Counted from the stretch's first letter, positions 392 to 9,516 are shown. The stretch is 24,000 nt of DNA from an uncultured Tissierellia bacterium (GCA_963552605.1 CAUVKI010000012.1:19555-43554), one strand, 5' to 3'. Translations and numbers: made by a program. The notes: generated by a model not told the origin, from the letters alone.

Positions 392-3300
392 ATGCTGGAG
401 AATGTGGATTTTTATTCTATACAGATCGGTCTTGCAAGTCCGGATAAGATTAGGGAGTGGTCAAGGGGCGAAGTAAAAAAACCCGAAACCATAAACTACC
501 GCACACTTAAACCCGAACGTGAGGGGTTGTTTTGTGAAAAGATCTTCGGTCCTACCAAAGATTGGGAATGTTATTGCGGAAAATATAAGCGTGTGCGTTA
601 TAAGGGCGTGATTTGTGACAAGTGCGGAGTGGAGGTTACTAAATCCAAGGTGCGCCGTGAAAGAATGGGACATATCGAGCTTGCGTCGCCTGTTTCTCAC
701 ATATGGTATTTTAAGGGTGTTCCGTCGAGAATGGCATTGGTGCTTGACATAAAAGCCAAAGACCTTGAGGGAGTGCTTTATTTCTCGCGCTATATAGTTA
801 CGGATAAGGGAACTTATAGGCTGCCTCTAAAAGAAGTGCTTTCCGAGGGAGAATATCAGAAAGAAAAAGCCGAGGCGGAGGAAATGGGTTTAACCTTTAC
901 CGCTAAAATGGGAGCCGAGGCGATAGAAGATCTTTTGAAGAGTATAGATTTAAATGAGGAATCCGAAAAGCTTAAGAAGCAAATTGAAAAGACCGGAGGT
1001 CAATCAAAATCCAAACTTGTAAAGAGATTGGAAACAATCGAAAGCTTCAAAAAATCAGGAAATGATCCTGCGTGGATGATACTTAATGTCATACCGGTCA
1101 TTCCTCCGGATTTAAGACCTATGGTTGAGTTGGACGGCGGGAGATTTGCAACAAGCGACCTTAATGATCTTTATCGAAGAGTCATAAATCGCAACAACAG
1201 GCTAAAAAGACTTTTAGACCTCGGTGCACCTGAAATTATAGTGAGAAACGAAAAGAGAATGCTTCAGGAAGCCGTGGATTCGTTAATAGATAACGGCAGA
1301 AGGGGAAAGGCTGTAACCGGAGCGGGAAACAGAGAGCTCAAATCCTTATCGGGAATGCTTAAGGGAAAGCAAGGGCGTTTTCGTCAAAATCTTTTGGGAA
1401 AGCGGGTGGACTATTCAGGACGCTCCGTTATAGTGGTAGGTCCCGAACTCAAGTTCTATCAGTGTGGACTTCCGAAGGATATGGCTTTGGAGCTTTTTAA
1501 GCCTTTCGTTATGAAAAGACTGGTTGAGGAGAACTATGCGCATAACATAAAGTCTGCAAAACGAATGGTGGAACGGGCGGAAGCTGAAGTGTGGGATGCG
1601 TTGGAATATGTGATAGAGGATCACCCCGTTCTTTTAAACAGAGCCCCGACTCTTCACAGATTGGGAATACAGGCATTTGAGCCGTTGCTTGTTGAGGGAA
1701 AGGCCATAAAGCTTCACCCTTTGGTGTGCGCCGCTTTTAATGCGGACTTTGACGGAGATCAAATGCCAGTACACATTCCGATTTCCGTGGAAGCTCAAGC
1801 GGAAGCAAGAATGCTTATGCTCTCTACCAATAATATCCTCGCACCCAAAGACGGAAAACCCATAACCACACCTTCTCAAGATATGGTGCTCGGGTGTTAT
1901 TGGATTACAATGGAAATTGCCGGAGAAATAGGAGAGGGAAAGCTCTTTTGTGACTATAACGAAATGCTCACCGCTTTGGAACATAAAGCTGTGGGGCTTC
2001 ATTCAAGAGTTAAAGTGCGTGTCAAATTAAACAGCAAGGATAGAGGAAAGATAGTCGAGAGCACGGTCGGAAGATTTATAATGAATCAGGAAATTCCTCA
2101 GGATTTGGGATTTGTGGACAGGGAAAAAGACCCCTATTCCTTGGAAGTGGATTTCTTATTAAAGAAAAAACAACTAAGCCTCCTTGTTGAGAAATGCTAT
2201 AAAAAACACGGCAATATAAAGACTGCAAGGCTTTTGGATCATATTAAATCAACAGGATTTAAATATTCCACACTCGCCGCCATTTCAATTTCAATAGGAG
2301 ATATTTTAGTTCCGGATGCAAAGAGGGAAATCATTGCACAGGCTGAGGAAAAGGTCGAAAAAATTCAAAAGATTTTCAAAAGAGGTCTTATATCGGACGA
2401 TGAACGCTATGAAAAGGTAATTGAAACTTGGACAAAAGCCACGGATGATCTTACCAATATCCTTATGGATAATATGAATGAGCTTAACAATATATACATT
2501 ATGACCAACTCGGGTGCGAGAGGAAGTATGCAGCAAATTCGTCAGCTTGCCGGAATGCGGGGACTTATGGCATCAACTTCCGGAAAGACTGTCGAAATTC
2601 CAATCAAATCAAATTTCCGTGAAGGACTTTCCGTATTGGAGTTTTTTATATCAACTCACGGTGCAAGAAAAGGATTGGCGGACACCGCATTGCGCACGGC
2701 GGATTCGGGATATCTTACGAGAAGGTTGGTAGATGTAAGTCAGCAGGTGATTATCAGAGAAGAGGACTGCAAAACGGAGGAGTATTTGACCATCACCTCG
2801 TTTAAAGACGGCAATGAAGTCATTGAGGAATTGAAAGACCGAATTGAGGGAAGATATTCGGCGGAAACCGTAACCCATCCGGAAACGGGGGAAATAATAG
2901 TTGAAAAAGGCTGTATGATTTCTCAGGATCAGGCGGAAAAAATTCAAGATGCGGGGATAATAAGCGTAAAAGCCAGATCGGTTTTGGGGTGTCATTCAAA
3001 GCGGGGAGTCTGTGCTCATTGCTACGGCAGAAACTTAGCCCAAGACGGAGATATTCAGATAGGAGAATCCGTAGGAATTATAGCGGCTCAATCCATAGGA
3101 GAGCCGGGAACTCAGCTTACGATGAGAGGATTTCACACCGGAGGAGTGGCGGGAGTTGCGGATATAACCCAAGGCTTGCCCAGAGTTGAGGAACTTTTTG
3201 AAGCGAGAAAACCAAAAGGTCTTGCGGTGATAAGTGAAGTTGCAGGAGAAGTGTCAATAAGAGACAATGAGGACAAGAGAAAAGATGTGGTAATAATCGA

Positions 3301-3934
3301 CGAACAAGGCGAAGAACACATCTATCATATCAATTACGGATATAGAATTCTTGTGAAAGAAGGACAGTATGTGGAAGAAGCTCAGGCTCTTACGGACGGT
3401 TCAATTGACCCTCACGAGATAATGAAGATTAAGGGAATTGAAGCGGTTGAACACTATATAGTAAAAGAAGTGCAAAGAGTATATAAAATGGCGGGTATCG
3501 ACATCAATGATAAGCACATTGAATTGATAGTAAGGCAGATGCTCTCAAAAGTGAAGATAGGAAACCCCGGGGACTCCGAGTTTTTGCCGGGCTCCATGGT
3601 TTCGTGGCAGACATTCAATGCGGTCAATCGCAGACTTGAGGAGAATGGAGAAACCGCCTCCGAGGGGGAAAGAATTCTACTGGGAATTACAAAAGCCGCA
3701 CTTGCAACGGAATCTTTCCTTTCCGCCGCATCGTTCCAAGAAACTACAAGGGTTTTGACTCAAGCGGCGATAGAGGGAAAGAGAGACCATTTAGAGGGAC
3801 TTAAGGAAAATATAATCATAGGAAAGCTCATTCCTGCAGGTACGGGATTGGTAAGATATAGAAAAGTGGAAGTGGAAAAGGAAAAAAAGACGGAAAAAAT
3901 CCTTAGAGAGATTCCTGTTGAGGATCTGTTATAG
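392..3934 (+). CDS. rpoC: DNA-directed RNA polymerase subunit beta-prime
   Basis: 1180-aa ORF with SD aaggag at 381-386. It has the N-terminal zinc motif [23 protein letters not shown] and the catalytic NADFDGDQM motif, and sits immediately downstream of rpoB. Confidence 0.97.
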
Positions 3935-3961
3935 TCCTGACTTATGTCGTAATCGTGAAGC

Positions 3962-3997
3962 ATCGGCGACTGCAAAAATGTAGTCGCCGATTTTTTT
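3962..3997 (+). terminator. Rho-independent terminator of rpoC
   Basis: 13-bp stem atcggcgactgca / tgtagtcgccgat (one G-U pair), A-rich 4-nt loop, then T7 (3991-3997). Confidence 0.8.
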
Positions 3998-4010
3998 GCG
4001 AGTATCTGAT

Positions 4011-4120
4011 ACTATTATTTCTTTGAATTGTGGATATAAACAATTTGTACTCCACAGAAGATACACGAATTTTTGTGGTCGAAAAATAGATATAACCATA
4101 CCTCTATTGAATAATATAGT
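4011..4120 (+). repeat. MITE-like repeat, copy A (110 nt)
   Basis: Reverse-complement match to 6884-6982 with 3 substitutions, a 9-nt insertion (ctccacaga) and a 2-nt insertion. About 86% identical over ~78 nt to 9404-9480. Starts ACTATTATT and ends with an imperfect inverted copy, AATAATATAGT. Confidence 0.75.
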
Positions 4121-5390: not shown

Positions 5391-6675
5391 GATGAACGCT
5401 ATGAAAAGGTAATTGAAACTTGGATAAAAGCCACGGATGATCTTACCAATATCCTTATGGATAATATGAATGAGCTTAACAATATATACATTATGACCAA
5501 CTCGGGTGCGAGAGGAAGTATGCAGCAAATTCGTCAGCTTGCCGGAATACGGCAATGAAGTCATTGAGGAATTGAAAGACCGAATTGAGGGAAGATACTC
5601 AGCGGAAACCGTAACCCACCCCGAAACGGGAGAAATAATAGTTGAAAAAGGCTGTATGATTTCTCAGGATCAGGCAGAAAAAATTCAAGATGCGGGGATA
5701 ATAAGCGTAAAAGCCAGATCGGTTTTGGGGTGTCATTCAAAGCGGGGAGTCTGTGCTCATTGCTACGGCAGAAACTTAGCCCAAGACGGAGATATTCAGA
5801 TAGGAGAATCCGTAGGAATTATAGCGGCTCAATCCATAGGAGAGCCGGGAACTCAGCTTACGATGAGAGGATTTCACACCGGAGGAGTGGCGGGAGTTGC
5901 GGATATAACCCAAGGCTTGCCCAGAGTTGAGGAACTTTTTGAAGCGAGAAAACCAAAAGGTCTTGCGGTGATAAGTGAAGTTGCAGGAGAAGTGTCAATA
6001 AGAGACAATGAGGACAAGAGAAAAGATGTGGTAATAATCGACGAACAAGGCGAAGAACACATCTATCATATCAATTACGGATATAGAATTCTTGTGAAAG
6101 AAGGACAGTATGTGGAAGAAGCTCAGGCTCTTACGGACGGTTCAATTGACCCTCACGAGATAATGAAGATTAAGGGAATTGAAGCGGTTGAACACTATAT
6201 AGTAAAAGAAGTGCAAAGAGTATATAAAATGGCGGGTATCGACATCAATGATAAGCACATTGAATTGATAGTAAGGCAGATGCTCTCAAAAGTGAAGATA
6301 GGAAACCCCGGGGACTCCGAGTTTTTGCCGGGCTCCATGGTTTCGTGGCAGACATTCAATGCGGTCAATCGCAGACTTGAGGAGAATGGAGAAACCGCCT
6401 CCGAGGGGGAAAGAATTCTACTGGGAATTACAAAAGCCGCACTTGCAACGGAATCTTTCCTTTCCGCCGCATCGTTCCAAGAAACTACAAGGGTTTTGAC
6501 TCAAGCGGCGATAGAGGGAAAGAGAGACCATTTAGAGGGACTTAAGGAAAATATAATCATAGGAAAGCTCATTCCTGCAGGTACGGGATTGGTAAGATAT
6601 AGAAAAGTGGAAGTGGAAAAGGAAAAAAAGACGGAAAAAATCCTTAGAGAGATTCCTGTTGAGGATCTGTTATAG
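5391..6675 (+). pseudogene. rpoC: Truncated, internally deleted duplicate of the rpoC 3' region
   Basis: 5391-5548 matches rpoC 2399-2556 and 5549-6675 matches rpoC 2808-3934. The 251 nt at 2557-2807 are missing, so the two blocks are out of frame. There is no native start. The 389-aa track ORF begins at a GTG in out-of-frame rpoC sequence. Confidence 0.9.
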
Positions 6676-6702
6676 TCCTGACTTATGTCGTAATCGTGAA
6701 GC

Positions 6703-6739
6703 ATCGGCGGCTGCAGAAATGTAGCCGCCGATTTTTTTT
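6703..6739 (+). terminator. Duplicate of the rpoC terminator (variant stem)
   Basis: Same hairpin as 3962-3997, but an A-T stem pair is replaced by G-C (6710/6725), there is one loop change (6716), and the tract is T8 rather than T7. Confidence 0.8.
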
Positions 6740-6824: not shown

Positions 6825-7186
6825 ATGCACAAAATACAACAACAAGAAGCAGAAAAGATAAAAGAAATGAGAAAGAAAGTAATACTATTATTCAATAGAA
6901 GTATGGTTATATATATTTTTCGACCATAAAAATTCGTGTATCTTACAAATTGTTTATATCCACAATTCAAAGAAATAATAGTATAAAATACAAAAGACTA
7001 TATGCAGTGCAGCTAAGAGCGGAAAGAAAAACCAATCAGGAAATAGCGGAAAAATTAGACACATCGGATAGGGTAGTAAGCAATTGGATATGCAAATATG
7101 TAAAAGAAGGAATAGAGGGATTATTAAGCAAACGACAAAAAGGAAATCACAGAAATATGACATTAAGGAAGGATAGTATAAGATAG
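6825..7186 (+). pseudogene. IS630-like transposase N-terminal HTH fragment, split by a MITE-like insertion and 3'-truncated
   Basis: SD gggggtga then ATG 6825 encodes MHKIQQQEAEKIKEMRKKV. After the 99-nt insert the ORF continues KYKRLYAVQLRAERKTNQEIAEKLDTSDRVVSNWICKYVKEGIEGLLSKRQKGNHRNM. This is a winged-helix/HTH pattern that I associate with IS630-family N-termini. No DDE domain follows. Confidence 0.6.
6884..6982 (-). repeat. MITE-like repeat, copy B (99 nt), inverted relative to copies A and C
   Basis: Perfect 9-bp terminal inverted repeats ACTATTATT / AATAATAGT, flanked by AT on both sides (6882-6883 and 6983-6984). About 97% identical to copy A apart from the indels. Confidence 0.75.
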
Positions 7187-8066: not shown

Positions 8067-8076
8067 GAGGTGTGTG

Positions 8077-8451
8077 ATGAGCTATTTAGGAGAAAGAGTA
8101 TCGTATCTAAGAGGTCTTTTGGAGGGAATGGAATTTGAATCCAAAAGCAGGGTAGGAAAGATTTTGAGTGAAGTGGTTGCCTGCATGGAGGATATGGCTG
8201 ATGAGATTGAAAGGCTTAGTGAAAATCAATCCGATTCGGACGAACTTTTAAATCTTTTAGATGAGGATTTGGAGGATTTGGAAGATTTCGTCTATGACGA
8301 TGATGAATATGACGGATACGATCGTTATGATGATTATGACGACGATGACGAGGACGATGACGACTTCGATTATGATTTTGACTATGACGACGATGACGAC
8401 GACTTCGATTACGATTTTGACGACGATGACGAGGACGATGACGAAGATTAG
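8077..8451 (+). CDS. CD1247 N-terminal-domain-like protein with a polyacidic D/E/Y/F tail
   Basis: The N-terminus MSYLGERVSYLRGLLEGM matches the small protein family commonly found downstream of efp in Clostridia. SD aggagg lies at 8065-8070. The C-terminal ~60 aa are almost entirely D/E/Y/F. Confidence 0.8.
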   Translation: MSYLGERVSYLRGLLEGMEFESKSRVGKILSEVVACMEDMADEIERLSENQSDSDELLNLLDEDLEDLEDFVYDDDEYDGYDRYDDYDDDDEDDDDFDYDFDYDDDDDDFDYDFDDDDEDDDED

Positions 8452-8499: not shown

Positions 8500-8593
8500 A
8501 GTTTCACGATAAACTAGTAATTTTTTAGAGAAATAGGATATGTTATGAATGGTGGGAGAATGGTGTTTGGGTAATTTTAGGGAATTTATTGAT

Positions 8594-8622
8594 TTGACAT
8601 TTATAAAAATATCTGCTAATCT
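8594..8622 (+). promoter_or_regulatory. Promoter of the type III TA locus
   Basis: TTGACA (8594-8599), an exact 17-nt spacer, then TAATCT (8617-8622) preceded by TGC, which gives an extended -10. Confidence 0.6.
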
Positions 8623-8629
8623 TTAAGCG

Positions 8630-8748
8630 GGTAAAGAGGGTGTCCCGCTACCGTTAAAGGTGGAACATTAAAGAAGGTGTCTCACTACCTATATCCCAAA
8701 GGTGAAGCATTAAAGCAAGCGGAGAGGGTAAAACCTCTCCGTTTTTTT
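8630..8748 (+). ncRNA. Candidate type III antitoxin RNA (ToxI-like tandem repeats ending in a terminator)
   Basis: There is no ORF. Tandem units occupy 8633-8669 (37 nt) and 8670-8711 (42 nt). They share cores aaaga(g/a)ggtgtc(c/t)c(g/a)ctacc (17/20) and aaaggtg(g/a)a(a/g)catt (12/14). A third unit starts at 8712 and runs into the terminator. The region lies between a promoter and a ToxN-like ORF. Confidence 0.6.
8720..8748 (+). terminator. Intrinsic terminator between the repeat RNA and the toxin ORF
   Basis: Stem cggagagg (8720-8727) / cctctccg (8734-8741), loop gtaaaa, then T7 (8742-8748). The toxin SD follows immediately. Confidence 0.75.
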
Positions 8749-8759
8749 AGGAGAAAGCA

Positions 8760-9317
8760 ATGGCAGAAGCGGTTAAATATGGATTTTATACTGTAAATCC
8801 CGATTATCTTGAATATCTGAGTAAAATAGACTCCGAAGTTTATTATGATCCATTGTATAGAAATAGTATCAAGCCATTTGTTGGAATTATTGTTGGGATA
8901 GAAAACTATAATTATTTTATTCCAATATCTTCTGCAAAGGAAAAACACAAAAGATGGAAGAATGTTTCTGATGAGCATTTTTTGATTTATGAAGTGATTG
9001 ATAATAGCATTACCATAAATGGAGATATTTATAAATACTATTCTGATAAAGAAAAAATGCACATATTATCTATACTGGATATTAAAAAAATGATACCTGT
9101 GCCAAATGGATGTTATGAAAGAATTATGTTTGATGAACTTGAGGACTTTAGATACAAAGACTTATTTGAAAAAGAATATGCTTTTTGCTTATCAATAAAA
9201 ACGAAGGTTTTGAAAAAAGTGGAAAAATTATATCAAAAGCAAAAAGAAACAGGAATCATTAGAAAAGCGAATTGCAATTTTTCAGAGTTGGAAAGAGCGA
9301 TGCTGGACTGGAAGTAA
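8760..9317 (+). CDS. toxN: ToxN/AbiQ-family type III toxin (endoribonuclease), 185 aa
   Basis: SD aggag lies 6 nt upstream. The protein shows landmarks I recall from ToxN/AbiQ: N-terminal FYTV..DYLEYLSKID, KPFVGIIVGI..YNYFIPISSAK, LDIKKMIPV, and C-terminal CNFSELE. Its size and the upstream repeat-terminator architecture also fit. Confidence 0.85.
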   Translation: MAEAVKYGFYTVNPDYLEYLSKIDSEVYYDPLYRNSIKPFVGIIVGIENYNYFIPISSAKEKHKRWKNVSDEHFLIYEVIDNSITINGDIYKYYSDKEKMHILSILDIKKMIPVPNGCYERIMFDELEDFRYKDLFEKEYAFCLSIKTKVLKKVEKLYQKQKETGIIRKANCNFSELERAMLDWK

Positions 9318-9341
9318 AAAAATTGCTTGCGAATAATCAAG

Positions 9342-9371
9342 GAAGTGGAATGCCAATCTACTTCTTTTTTT
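9342..9371 (+). terminator. Intrinsic terminator after toxN
   Basis: Stem gaagtgg / ctacttc (one G-U pair), 9-nt loop, then T7 (9365-9371). Confidence 0.65.
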
Positions 9372-9403
9372 ATGCAAGGGAAGATGATGGAAAGGCGGTT
9401 TAC

Positions 9404-9480
9404 ACTATTATTTCTTTGAATTGTAGATATCAACGATTTGTGCTCCTAAGAAGACACATGAATTTTTGCGGTCGCAAAAG
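9404..9480 (+). repeat. MITE-like repeat, copy C (partial, diverged)
   Basis: About 86% identical to the first ~78 nt of copy A in the same orientation. It retains the 9-nt segment that copy B lacks. The right-hand terminal repeat is absent. Confidence 0.6.
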
Positions 9481-9487
9481 GGAATTC

Positions 9488-9516
9488 TTGCAAACATATG
9501 GTTATTCTGCTACAAT
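9488..9516 (+). promoter_or_regulatory. Candidate promoter of the asp23-nusB operon
   Basis: TTGCAA (9488-9493), a 17-nt spacer, then TGCTACAAT extended -10 (9508-9516), 22 nt upstream of the asp23 ATG. Confidence 0.5.

What the first reader, a model, noticed from the sequence alone, without database searches (positions are those of the whole stretch)
8594..9371. Compact type III toxin-antitoxin (ToxIN/AbiQ-like) module inserted between the efp and asp23-nusB operons
Seen in sequence: a near-consensus promoter (TTGACA-17-TGcTAATCT) is followed by ~115 nt with no ORF, made of short tandem units. Next comes a strong intrinsic terminator (8-bp GC-rich stem plus T7), then SD aggag and a 185-aa ORF, and finally a second terminator. 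Established knowledge: type III TA loci (Pectobacterium ToxIN, Lactococcus AbiQ/antiQ, CptIN, TenpIN) have exactly this layout of promoter, repeat RNA, leaky terminator and toxin. They act as abortive-infection phage defence. The protein carries landmarks I recall from ToxN (FYT..Y.EYL N-terminus, KxF.GI..., MIP, CNFSxLE near the C-terminus). Inference: this ~0.8-kb self-contained cassette is an accessory defence island in an otherwise conserved housekeeping neighbourhood. It is bounded on the right by a MITE-like remnant.
Basis: partly seen in the sequence, partly recalled or inferred. Interest (0 to 1): 0.8.

Follow-up and report, generated by a model that had tools for sequence, protein, structure and literature searches.

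The report
ToxIN RNA-protein toxin-antitoxin cassette
This is an ordinary but intact member of the known ToxIN family: a ribonuclease toxin gene preceded by a short repeated RNA that should neutralise it. It was acquired horizontally and sits between two housekeeping operons.

Summary
The ORF at 8760-9317 is a ToxN/AbiQ-family endoribonuclease: Pfam PF13958 E=6.5e-41, and the AlphaFold model's only significant PDB matches are ToxN and AbiQ. The ToxN active-site residues are conserved. Upstream lie a promoter, two unequal tandem units (37 nt and 42 nt), an 8-bp GC-rich terminator with T7, and an SD. A second terminator follows the gene.

The same 37+42 layout recurs almost unchanged in more than 40 loci from Fusobacteriota, Negativicutes, Tissierellia, Clostridia and Bacilli. 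Across 63 distinct units, both stems of a ToxI-type pseudoknot covary. toxN is under purifying selection (dN/dS about 0.06-0.13).

Homology to other genomes is confined to about 8515-9398. Relatives with the same efp / acidic ORF / asp23-nusB synteny lack the cassette. Elsewhere it sits beside a MobA/MobL relaxase or inside a conjugative element.

Corrections:
- The -10 hexamer is weak (3 of 6).
- There are only about 2.1 repeats.
- Tandem Repeats Finder misses them.

The family and this Gram-positive/Fusobacterium branch were catalogued in 2012, so this is a new member of a known kind. Side observation: phages, including cultured Lactococcus AM phages, carry single ToxI-like units without a toxin.

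The parts
8515..8593 (+). Left flank of the transferred cassette, upstream of the promoter. It carries a window-specific 10-nt insertion.
   Evidence: Homology with L002, L008, L010 and L011 starts at about 8515. In those loci the equivalent sequence directly follows the stop codon of a MobA/MobL relaxase gene.
8594..8622 (+). Promoter: -35 TTGACA, 17-nt spacer, TGn extension, weak -10 TAATCT
   Evidence: Read from the sequence. Not listed by the consensus scan because the -10 matches at only 3 of 6 positions. Position conserved in homologs, which have TATACT.
8632..8668 (+). ToxI-like antitoxin unit 1 (37 nt, short type). Stem 1 is GGU/ACC; stem 2 is CCGC/GUGG.
   Evidence: Direct repeat with spacing 37. 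The same unit is present in more than 40 loci. Covariation supports the pseudoknot.
8669..8710 (+). ToxI-like antitoxin unit 2 (42 nt, long type, 5-nt longer connecting loop). Stem 1 is AGGU/ACCU; stem 2 is UCAC/GUGA.
   Evidence: Direct repeat with spacing 42. Identical sequence in 17 loci of the set analysed. Covariation supports the pseudoknot.
8711..8715 (+). Start of a third unit (TAAAG), completing the third copy of the near-invariant inter-unit linker AUUAAAG, the presumed ToxN processing site
   Evidence: Linker columns are nearly invariant in alignment A2. ATTAAAG is found at 8667 and 8709. Assigning it as the cleavage site is inference by analogy with GAAAU in ToxIN of E. coli (PMC8860590).
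8717..8748 (+). Intrinsic terminator between antitoxin and toxin: 8-bp GC-rich stem at 8720-8741 (11 bp in the MFE fold) followed by T7
   Evidence: (I1). A hairpin is present at the same place in all homologous loci, with different stem sequences.
8749..8753 (+). Shine-Dalgarno AGGAG, 6 nt before the ATG
   Evidence: Sequence; conserved in homologs
8760..9317 (+). toxN: 185-aa ToxN/AbiQ-family endoribonuclease toxin
   Evidence: Pfam PF13958 E=6.5e-41. PADLOC AbiQ. PDB ToxN/AbiQ by sequence and by fold. K38/S57/S58/K60 align with ToxN K33/T52/S53/K55. dN/dS 0.06-0.13.
9339..9371 (+). Terminator after toxN: 11-pair stem followed by a T run
   Evidence: Conserved in L002, L008, L011, L012 and L017.
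9372..9398 (+). Right flank of the transferred cassette; the last stretch still alignable with other loci
   Evidence: alignment with L008, L012, L017. blastn homology ends at 9379-9382.
9399..9479 (+). Truncated copy of a host MITE-like repeat abutting the cassette. It is not part of the cassette and is absent from all other toxIN loci.
   Evidence: No match in the 80 loci.

Best explanation

**Proposed mechanism (inferred from the family).** One promoter drives a short non-coding RNA made of two pseudoknot units. A terminator after the repeats lets only some transcripts continue into toxN, so antitoxin RNA outnumbers toxin. ToxN is a sequence-specific endoribonuclease. It would cut the precursor in the conserved A-rich linker (AUUAAAG) and stay bound to the released pseudoknots in a closed, inactive RNA-protein complex. 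When transcription of the locus stops, for example through phage-induced host shut-off or loss of a carrying element, the labile RNA is no longer replenished and free ToxN degrades cellular and phage RNA.

**Shown here:**
- family, fold and active-site residues of the toxin;
- the repeat, terminator and SD anatomy;
- conservation and covariation of the RNA pseudoknot;
- purifying selection on toxN;
- horizontal spread, and insertion into a conserved housekeeping site.

**Inferred from the family, not shown:** the cleavage site, neutralisation by the RNA, terminator leakiness, and the phage-defence or addiction phenotype.
For: **Toxin**
- Pfam ToxN_toxin E=6.5e-41 over 157 of 159 profile positions; PADLOC AbiQ 1.3e-27.
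- phmmer hits to ToxN 2xd0, 4ato and 7d8o, and to AbiQ 4glk.
- AlphaFold pLDDT 92.1, pTM 0.88. Those four entries are the only Foldseek hits with E<=0.001, with TM 0.65-0.81.
- K38, S57, S58 and K60 align with ToxN K33, T52, S53 and K55, the residues reported at the active site (PMC8860590). K38, S58 and K60 are invariant in 33 homologs. Position 57 is Ser or Thr (pattern).
- dN/dS is 0.06-0.13 at dS 0.45-1.0 against 16 intact homologs.

**Antitoxin**
- Two units with spacings of 37 and 42 nt.
- The same 37+42 arrangement, terminator and SD occur in more than 40 loci. The units are nearly invariant although synonymous sites of toxN are about 50% saturated.
- On 63 distinct units, the two stems (columns 1-4 with 13-16, and 8-11 with 29-32) are 97.4% paired. 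There are 59 double-change cells against 19.2 +/- 3.6 in shuffles (0 of 500 reach the observed value), and pairing collapses when partners are slid.
- Stem and loop spacing (3-nt loop, 1-nt loop, long variable loop, G before stem 2b) matches the ToxI template described in PMC3401426.
- Repeat length and copy number are inside the family range of 31-62 nt and 1.9-5.6 copies.

**Acquisition**
- Homology with 80 loci is limited to 8515-9398.
- Relatives L087, L089 and L090 have efp / acidic ORF / terminator / promoter / asp23 with 86-116-nt gaps and no cassette.
- Elsewhere the cassette follows a MobA/MobL relaxase, or lies in a conjugative element of more than 12 kb.
Against: - The window's own -10 hexamer is poor (TAATCT, 3 of 6), where relatives have TATACT. 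Expression may therefore be lower than in relatives.
- The window-specific leader GCGGG (8626-8630) can pair with CCCGC of unit 1 in the MFE fold. This would compete with pseudoknot stem 2.
- There are only two complete units, the low end of the family range.
- In related mobile elements toxN is often inactivated by a frameshift or a 161-bp 5' deletion. The toxin is therefore dispensable in some hosts.
- No expression, processing, toxicity or phage data exist for this locus.
- No Rfam family matched the RNA. I did not check whether Rfam contains a ToxI model.
Confidence: 0.88

Rival explanations
1. The module is a working ToxIN system, but its biological role here is post-segregational addiction or selfish persistence inherited from a mobilisable element. 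It would be a stranded passenger in the chromosome rather than a phage defence.
For: The closest cassettes lie immediately downstream of a MobA/MobL relaxase (L008, L010, L011) or inside a conjugative element of more than 12 kb with topoisomerase III, a CD1107-like protein and TnpV, shared at 97-100% identity among many Peptoniphilaceae genera. The window's left flank 8515-8576 is homologous to the sequence just after that relaxase gene. No other defence gene lies next to it.
Against: ToxIN and AbiQ relatives are documented anti-phage systems (PMC3401426, PMC13064643). Phage genomes carry solitary ToxI-like units of this same RNA class, as expected if phages are under selection from such systems. 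The two roles are not mutually exclusive.
Confidence: 0.25
2. The locus is a silent or decaying remnant. The sequence looks intact, but it is not expressed or no longer functional in this genome.
For: The -10 box is weakened relative to all close homologs (TAATCT versus TATACT). There is a 10-nt insertion upstream of the promoter and substitutions in the leader. toxN pseudogenes are common in sister loci.
Against: The ORF is full length, with all 42 family-invariant residues listed. dN/dS is about 0.06-0.1 against its closest relatives. Both pseudoknot units, the terminator and the SD are intact. The -35 is perfect and a TGn extension can compensate for a weak -10 (established knowledge of extended -10 promoters).
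Confidence: 0.08
3. The upstream repeats are only a cis-acting leader or attenuator of the ORF and do not act as a trans-acting antitoxin.
For: The repeats are followed by a terminator, as in attenuators. Only two units are present. Tandem Repeats Finder and Rfam do not recognise them.
Against: The covarying two-stem pseudoknot has the exact stem and loop spacing of crystallographically defined ToxI. The single-stranded linkers between units are near-invariant. Single units exist on their own in phages and are retained next to deleted toxN genes. A purely cis leader would not be expected to behave this way.
Confidence: 0.03

Closest known systems
ToxIN of Pectobacterium atrosepticum pECA1039 (PDB 2xd0/2xdb/2xdd) and ToxIN of E. 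coli (7d8o)
   Same: Same operon logic: promoter, tandem RNA repeats, terminator, toxN. Same Pfam family and fold. Same active-site Lys / Ser-Thr / Ser / Lys (PMC8860590). The RNA unit has the same H-type pseudoknot plan, with AGGU...ACCU as stem 1 and a loop-to-downstream stem 2 (PMC3401426).
   Different: Only about 24% identity in the fold-based alignment. The toxin is 185 aa against about 170 aa. There are two unequal units (37 and 42 nt) instead of 5.5 identical 36-nt units. The presumed linker is AUUAAAG rather than GAAAU. The locus is chromosomal and stand-alone rather than on a plasmid.
ToxIN of Bacillus thuringiensis pAW63 (PDB 4ato)
   Same: Best Foldseek hit (E=4.6e-10, TM 0.70/0.76). 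A Firmicute ToxIN with few repeats; the figure of about 2.9 x 34 nt is from my own knowledge of the literature.
   Different: 25% identity; different repeat sequence and length; plasmid-borne.
AbiQ/antiQ of Lactococcus lactis (PDB 4glk)
   Same: Same family (PADLOC AbiQ 1.3e-27; fold match). A Gram-positive type III TA with a proven anti-phage phenotype (PMC13064643).
   Different: 25% identity. It is not the closest branch. The antiQ repeat sequence was not compared here.
toxIN loci catalogued by Blower et al. 2012 in Peptoniphilus duerdenii ATCC BAA-1640, P. harei, Finegoldia magna, Eubacterium yurii, Fusobacterium and Lachnospiraceae (PMC3401426)
   Same: Same host groups as the 80-92% identical loci found here. 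L069 is from the same P. duerdenii strain. That paper also noted horizontal spread between unrelated bacteria, and truncated toxins with intact repeats.
   Different: This window's host, an uncultured Tissierellia-like lineage, and its insertion site between efp and asp23 are new. The paper's Table S1 is not held in the library, so I could not verify locus-by-locus identity.

Membership tests
ToxIN (type III TA, ToxN/AbiQ family) | Toxin matches the ToxN_toxin profile (PF13958) above the curated threshold | tested here: met
   140.6 bits against a cut-off of 25, E=6.5e-41, residues 9-182 on profile positions 3-157 of 159
ToxIN (type III TA, ToxN/AbiQ family) | Toxin adopts the ToxN/AbiQ fold | tested here: met
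   Model pLDDT 92.1. 4ato, 2xd0, 7d8o and 4glk are the only hits with E<=0.001, prob 1.00, TM 0.65-0.81.
ToxIN (type III TA, ToxN/AbiQ family) | Active-site residues equivalent to ToxN Lys33, Thr52, Ser53 and Lys55 | tested here: met
   K38, S57 (Thr to Ser), S58 and K60 in the phmmer alignment to 2xd0. K38, S58 and K60 are invariant in 33 homologs. Residue roles are from PMC8860590.
ToxIN (type III TA, ToxN/AbiQ family) | Tandem direct repeats directly upstream of the toxin on the same strand, within the family range (31-62 nt, 1.9-5.6 copies) | tested here: met
   Units of 37 and 42 nt, about 2.1 copies. Range from PMC3401426 Table 2. Tandem Repeats Finder itself reports nothing.
ToxIN (type III TA, ToxN/AbiQ family) | Each repeat can form a ToxI-type hairpin pseudoknot: two nested 3-4-bp stems, a 3-4-nt loop, a 1-2-nt loop and a long variable loop | tested here: met
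   Two 4-bp stems with loops of 3 nt, 1 nt and 12-18 nt. 97.4% of cells paired; 4 of 8 pairs have double changes; 0 of 500 shuffles reach the covariation score; slid controls collapse.
ToxIN (type III TA, ToxN/AbiQ family) | Rho-independent terminator between the repeats and the toxin gene | tested here: met
   8-bp stem at 8720-8741 plus T7. Present in all homologous loci.
ToxIN (type III TA, ToxN/AbiQ family) | Promoter upstream of the repeats driving both genes | tested here: inconclusive
   Perfect -35, 17-nt spacer and TGn, but the -10 matches at only 3 of 6 positions and was not called by the scan. Homologs have TATACT at the same position.
ToxIN (type III TA, ToxN/AbiQ family) | ToxN processes the repeat RNA, and the processed RNA neutralises the toxin | not testable with these tools
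   Needs toxicity and rescue assays and RNA end mapping
ToxIN (type III TA, ToxN/AbiQ family) | Anti-phage (abortive infection-like) phenotype | not testable with these tools
   Indirect support only: solitary ToxI-like units in phage genomes
CptIN / TenpIN (the other type III TA families) | Toxin related to CptN or TenpN | tested here: not met
   At E<=1 the only relevant hits were Pfam ToxN_toxin and PADLOC AbiQ. I did not verify that CptN and TenpN models are present in those libraries.

The most novel reading that the evidence does not exclude
This branch of ToxIN may have a fixed two-part antitoxin, and phages may counter it with single-unit RNA decoys.

- **Two-part antitoxin.** The antitoxin consists of a short (37-nt) and a long (42-nt) pseudoknot with different stem-2 sequences (CCRC:GUGG versus UCAC:GUGA). 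This arrangement is conserved unchanged across several phyla while toxN synonymous sites diverge by dS 0.5-1. The two RNAs might therefore be non-redundant. For example, they could build a mixed, asymmetric ToxN-RNA assembly unlike the homo-trimeric triangle of the solved ToxIN complexes.
- **Phage decoys.** Phages carry single units of either type without a toxin. Examples are L096 between the terminase and portal genes, and Lactococcus phages AM1-AM12, which match the toxIN antitoxin of an L. lactis plasmid. These could be natural decoys.
Probability: 0.15. Interest if true: 0.55.

Novelty: new member of a known kind. Interest (0 to 1): 0.3.

Why it matters
In itself it matters little. It adds one more ToxIN locus, in an uncultured Tissierellia-like bacterium, to a family catalogued since 2009-2012. 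Standard annotation would already name the protein.

It is still useful in three ways:
- It is a clean natural example of an RNA-antitoxin cassette of about 0.9 kb moving as a unit, from terminator to terminator, from mobilisable elements into a core chromosomal intergenic site.
- The comparative set assembled here gives covariation support for the pseudoknot and a candidate processing motif (AUUAAAG) for this branch.
- It exposes phage-borne solitary ToxI-like units that could be tested as natural anti-defence RNAs.

Tried and rejected
- **Tandem Repeats Finder** at minimum score 30 found no array. The two units differ by a 5-nt indel and there are only two, so the negative result is uninformative.
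- **Rfam** at E<=10 gave only chance-level miRNA and sRNA hits.
- **NCBIfam** gave no meaningful hit.
- **IS or MITE as vehicle.** I considered that the 43-nt inverted repeat 6945-6987 / 9399-9441 marks a composite element carrying efp and toxIN. I rejected this. It is one of three copies of a host-specific repeat of about 115 nt, it is absent from all 80 other toxIN loci, and efp is syntenic in relatives.
- **Junction signatures.** I looked for target-site duplications or terminal repeats at the cassette junctions. None was evident, and the nearest empty sites are too diverged to define the breakpoint to the base.
- **Table S1 of Blower et al. 2012** is not held in the library, so I could not confirm that this exact repeat sequence is listed there.
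- **First Asp23 query** failed because of a coordinate error; it was repeated correctly.

Full report
**Observation**

- A perfect -35 (TTGACA, 8594-8599) is followed after 17 nt by TGc-TAATCT.
- A 137-nt stretch with no ORF follows.
- Next comes a hairpin, CGGAGAGG-GTAAAA-CCTCTCCG (8720-8741), with seven T (8742-8748).
- AGGAG lies at 8749-8753 and a 185-codon ORF at 8760-9317.
- A second hairpin with a T run lies at 9339-9371.

Two corrections apply.
- The -10 hexamer matches the consensus at only 3 of 6 positions, so the promoter scan did not list the site. Close homologs have TATACT at the same position.
- The 'tandem units' are just two unequal units, 8632-8668 (37 nt) and 8669-8710 (42 nt), followed by the first five bases of a third. 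Tandem Repeats Finder misses them.

The unit core occurs twice in the window against 0.02 expected by chance.

**The protein**

- The ORF matches Pfam ToxN_toxin (PF13958) at E=6.5e-41, almost end to end.
- It matches PADLOC AbiQ at 1.3e-27.
- By sequence it matches the solved ToxN proteins of P. atrosepticum, B. thuringiensis and E. coli, and lactococcal AbiQ.
- An AlphaFold model built on 33 homologs is confident (pLDDT 92.1, pTM 0.88). Its only significant PDB matches are those same four entries (TM 0.65-0.81, about 24-25% identity).
- In the alignment to ToxN, K38, S57, S58 and K60 take the places of Lys33, Thr52, Ser53 and Lys55. Those residues are reported at the catalytic site, and mutating Lys33, Thr52 or Lys55 abolishes toxicity (PMC8860590).
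- K38, S58 and K60 are invariant among homologs.
- Against 16 intact homologs, dN/dS is 0.06-0.13 at dS 0.45-1.0. The gene has therefore been under purifying selection.

**The RNA**

A scan of one genome per species returned 80 loci. In more than 40 of them the whole upstream region is nearly the same as in the window: promoter, a 37-nt unit, a 42-nt unit, terminator and SD. These hosts include Fusobacterium, Anaeroglobus, Johnsonella, Lachnoanaerobaculum, Oribacterium, Peptoniphilus, Anaerococcus, Gemella, Granulicatella, Streptococcus and Atopobacter. More distant loci have two or three units of 38-43 nt.

I aligned 63 distinct units and tested a two-stem pseudoknot, with columns 1-4 pairing with 13-16 and columns 8-11 with 29-32.
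- 97.4% of cells form standard pairs.
- Stem 2 alternates between C-G and U-A at one pair, and among A-U, G-U, G-C and U-A at another.
- Stem 1 alternates between U-A and C-G, and among A-U, G-C and U-A.
- There are 59 double-change cells against 19.2 +/- 3.6 in shuffles; none of 500 shuffles reaches the observed covariation score.
- Pairing falls to 30-63% when partners are slid by 1-3 columns.

The spacing is a 3-nt loop, a 1-nt loop, a long variable loop, and a G before stem 2b. This is the pattern Blower et al. describe for ToxI homologs aligned to the crystal structure (PMC3401426). Unit length and copy number lie within that paper's toxIN range (31-62 nt, 1.9-5.6 copies).

The single-stranded linker between units, AUUAAAG, is nearly invariant. 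By analogy with the GAAAU site of ToxN in E. coli (PMC8860590), I infer that it is the processing site. This is not shown.

**Origin**

- Similarity between the window and the 80 loci is confined to 8577-9323 in most, and to 8515-9382 in the closest. Alignments place the ends at about 8515 and about 9398.
- The exact ToxN protein occurs on a metagenome contig with the same neighbours.
- The host is poorly sampled. The best Asp23 homologs outside it are 62% and 57% identical, the latter from a Tissierellia MAG.
- Those relatives keep efp, the small acidic ORF (72% identical N-terminus), asp23, nusB, xseA, xseB and ispA in the same order. Only 86-116 nt lie between the acidic ORF and asp23.
- In L087 that gap holds just a terminator and a TTGCAA-17-TAAAAT promoter. 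The window has the same terminator and a TTGCAA-17-TACAAT promoter, separated by the toxIN cassette and an 81-nt repeat remnant.
- The insertion claim is therefore supported, at family-level phylogenetic distance.

In other genomes the cassette lies right after a MobA/MobL relaxase gene (Johnsonella, Peptoanaerobacter, a Fusobacterium MAG). It also lies inside an element of more than 12 kb that is 97-100% identical across many Peptoniphilaceae genera and encodes topoisomerase III, a CD1107-like protein and TnpV. The window's left flank (8515-8576) is homologous to the sequence just downstream of that relaxase. This suggests the cassette came from such an element.

**Mechanism**

The anatomy fits the established ToxIN scheme. 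Excess antitoxin RNA is ensured by a terminator before the toxin gene. The endoribonuclease cuts the repeat precursor and is held inactive by the released pseudoknots. The toxin is freed when the RNA is no longer made; the review PMC13064643, citing Guegler and Laub 2021, attributes ToxIN's anti-phage effect to ToxN cleavage of viral mRNAs. The sequence-level steps are shown here. Processing, neutralisation and phenotype are inferred.

Caveats specific to this copy:
- the weak -10;
- a leader (GCGGG, 8626-8630) that can pair with stem 2a of unit 1;
- the minimal number of units.

**Comparison and novelty**

This is a member of the toxIN family by every feature that can be tested in silico. It is not CptIN or TenpIN. 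The same host groups, and in one case the same strain (Peptoniphilus duerdenii ATCC BAA-1640), were already listed as toxIN carriers in 2012, together with the observation of horizontal spread (PMC3401426). NCBI already names homologs 'type III toxin-antitoxin system ToxN/AbiQ family toxin'. It is a new member of a known kind, of modest interest.

**Beyond the finding**

- **Fixed short-plus-long unit pair.** The pair has distinct stem-2 sequences and is conserved over substantial synonymous divergence. Whether the two RNAs are redundant is unknown.
- **Solitary units in phage contigs.** A pattern scan of viral contigs found full toxIN loci in two contigs and solitary units without toxN in four.
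  - One unit overlaps the stop codon of a large terminase gene and is followed by tRNA-Pro and the portal gene (L096).
  - Another lies downstream of an anti-repressor gene and retains a degenerate toxN start (L093).
- **Solitary units in cultured phages.** Lactococcus phages AM1-AM12 carry one unit in a tRNA region. It is 97.7% identical over 43 nt to the repeat of a toxIN locus on L. lactis plasmid p001F (about 3.5 x 41 nt). That plasmid's toxin is 34% identical to the window's.
- **Precedent.** This resembles the 1.5 pseudo-ToxI repeats of wild-type phage PhiTE, which expand to give escape from ToxIN (PMC3475682).
- **Prior mention.** The one lactococcal Abi review I checked does not mention the AM-phage units. 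I did not search further.

Noticed in passing
L096:1782-1808; L092:221-252; L093:5667-5698 (-); L094:79-110 (-): IMG/VR viral contigs carry a single ToxI-like pseudoknot unit of this same RNA class with no toxN gene. In L096 it overlaps the stop codon of the large terminase gene and is followed by a promoter-like region, tRNA-Pro and the portal gene. In L093 it lies downstream of an anti-repressor gene and is followed by the terminator, SD and a degenerate toxN start. These are candidate natural antitoxin decoys, like pseudo-ToxI of phage PhiTE.
   Followed up: partly
L097:1503-1551 (Lactococcus phage AM1, KY554768.1 about 48983-49031) and L098:1450-1620 (L. lactis plasmid p001F, NZ_CP053672.2): Eight records of cultured Lactococcus 949-group (Audreyjarvisvirus) AM phages hold one ToxI-like unit in a tRNA region. 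It is 97.7% identical over 43 nt to the roughly 3.5 x 41-nt repeats upstream of a ToxN/AbiQ gene on an L. lactis plasmid. The lactococcal Abi review I checked does not mention it.
   Followed up: partly
window 2399-2560 and 2805-3997 versus 5391-5552 and 5546-6738: A second, partial copy of the 3' third of rpoC plus its downstream 60 nt lies 1.4 kb after the full rpoC gene (392-3934). It is 99% identical and has an internal 244-bp deletion. It is either a real segmental duplication next to the MITE/IS copies or an assembly artefact. One metagenome contig of this organism (L081) ends at about window 6930, inside the repeat.
   Followed up: partly
window 4002-4116 (+), 6886-6991 (-), 9399-9479 (+, truncated): Three copies of a MITE-like repeat of about 115 nt, with terminal inverted repeats (ATACTATTATT...). 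It is absent from all other toxIN loci. Copy B runs into an IS630-like helix-turn-helix transposase fragment (6950-7186; Pfam HTH_23/HTH_29), so the repeat may derive from an IS end.
   Followed up: partly
window 9488-9516: The predicted asp23 promoter (TTGCAA-17-TACAAT with TG) lies directly after the truncated MITE copy. The empty site in L087 has TTGCAA-17-TAAAAT at the equivalent place, so the insertion preserved the downstream operon's promoter.
   Followed up: partly
L043-L053, L056, L076-L078 (161-bp deletion); L054, L061-L072 (1-nt shorter match): In the conjugative element of more than 12 kb shared by many Peptoniphilaceae, toxN is often inactivated while the repeats and terminator stay intact. 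One group lacks the equivalent of window 8750-8910 (SD, start and about 50 codons). Another appears frameshifted (ORF of 110 aa in L067). Intact versions exist in L007 and L013.
   Followed up: partly
window 8074-8451: A small ORF after efp has a conserved N-terminal 50 residues and an extremely acidic, repetitive D/E/Y/F-rich tail. It has no Pfam match. It is conserved in position in relatives (L087, L089), where it is also unannotated.
   Followed up: partly
L082, L084, L086 (contig starts); L010, L041, L058 (Peptoanaerobacter stomatis contig ends): Several assemblies appear to break inside or next to toxN, judging from gene positions and distances to asp23. This suggests the cassette is multi-copy or strain-variable in those samples and genomes.
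   Followed up: no
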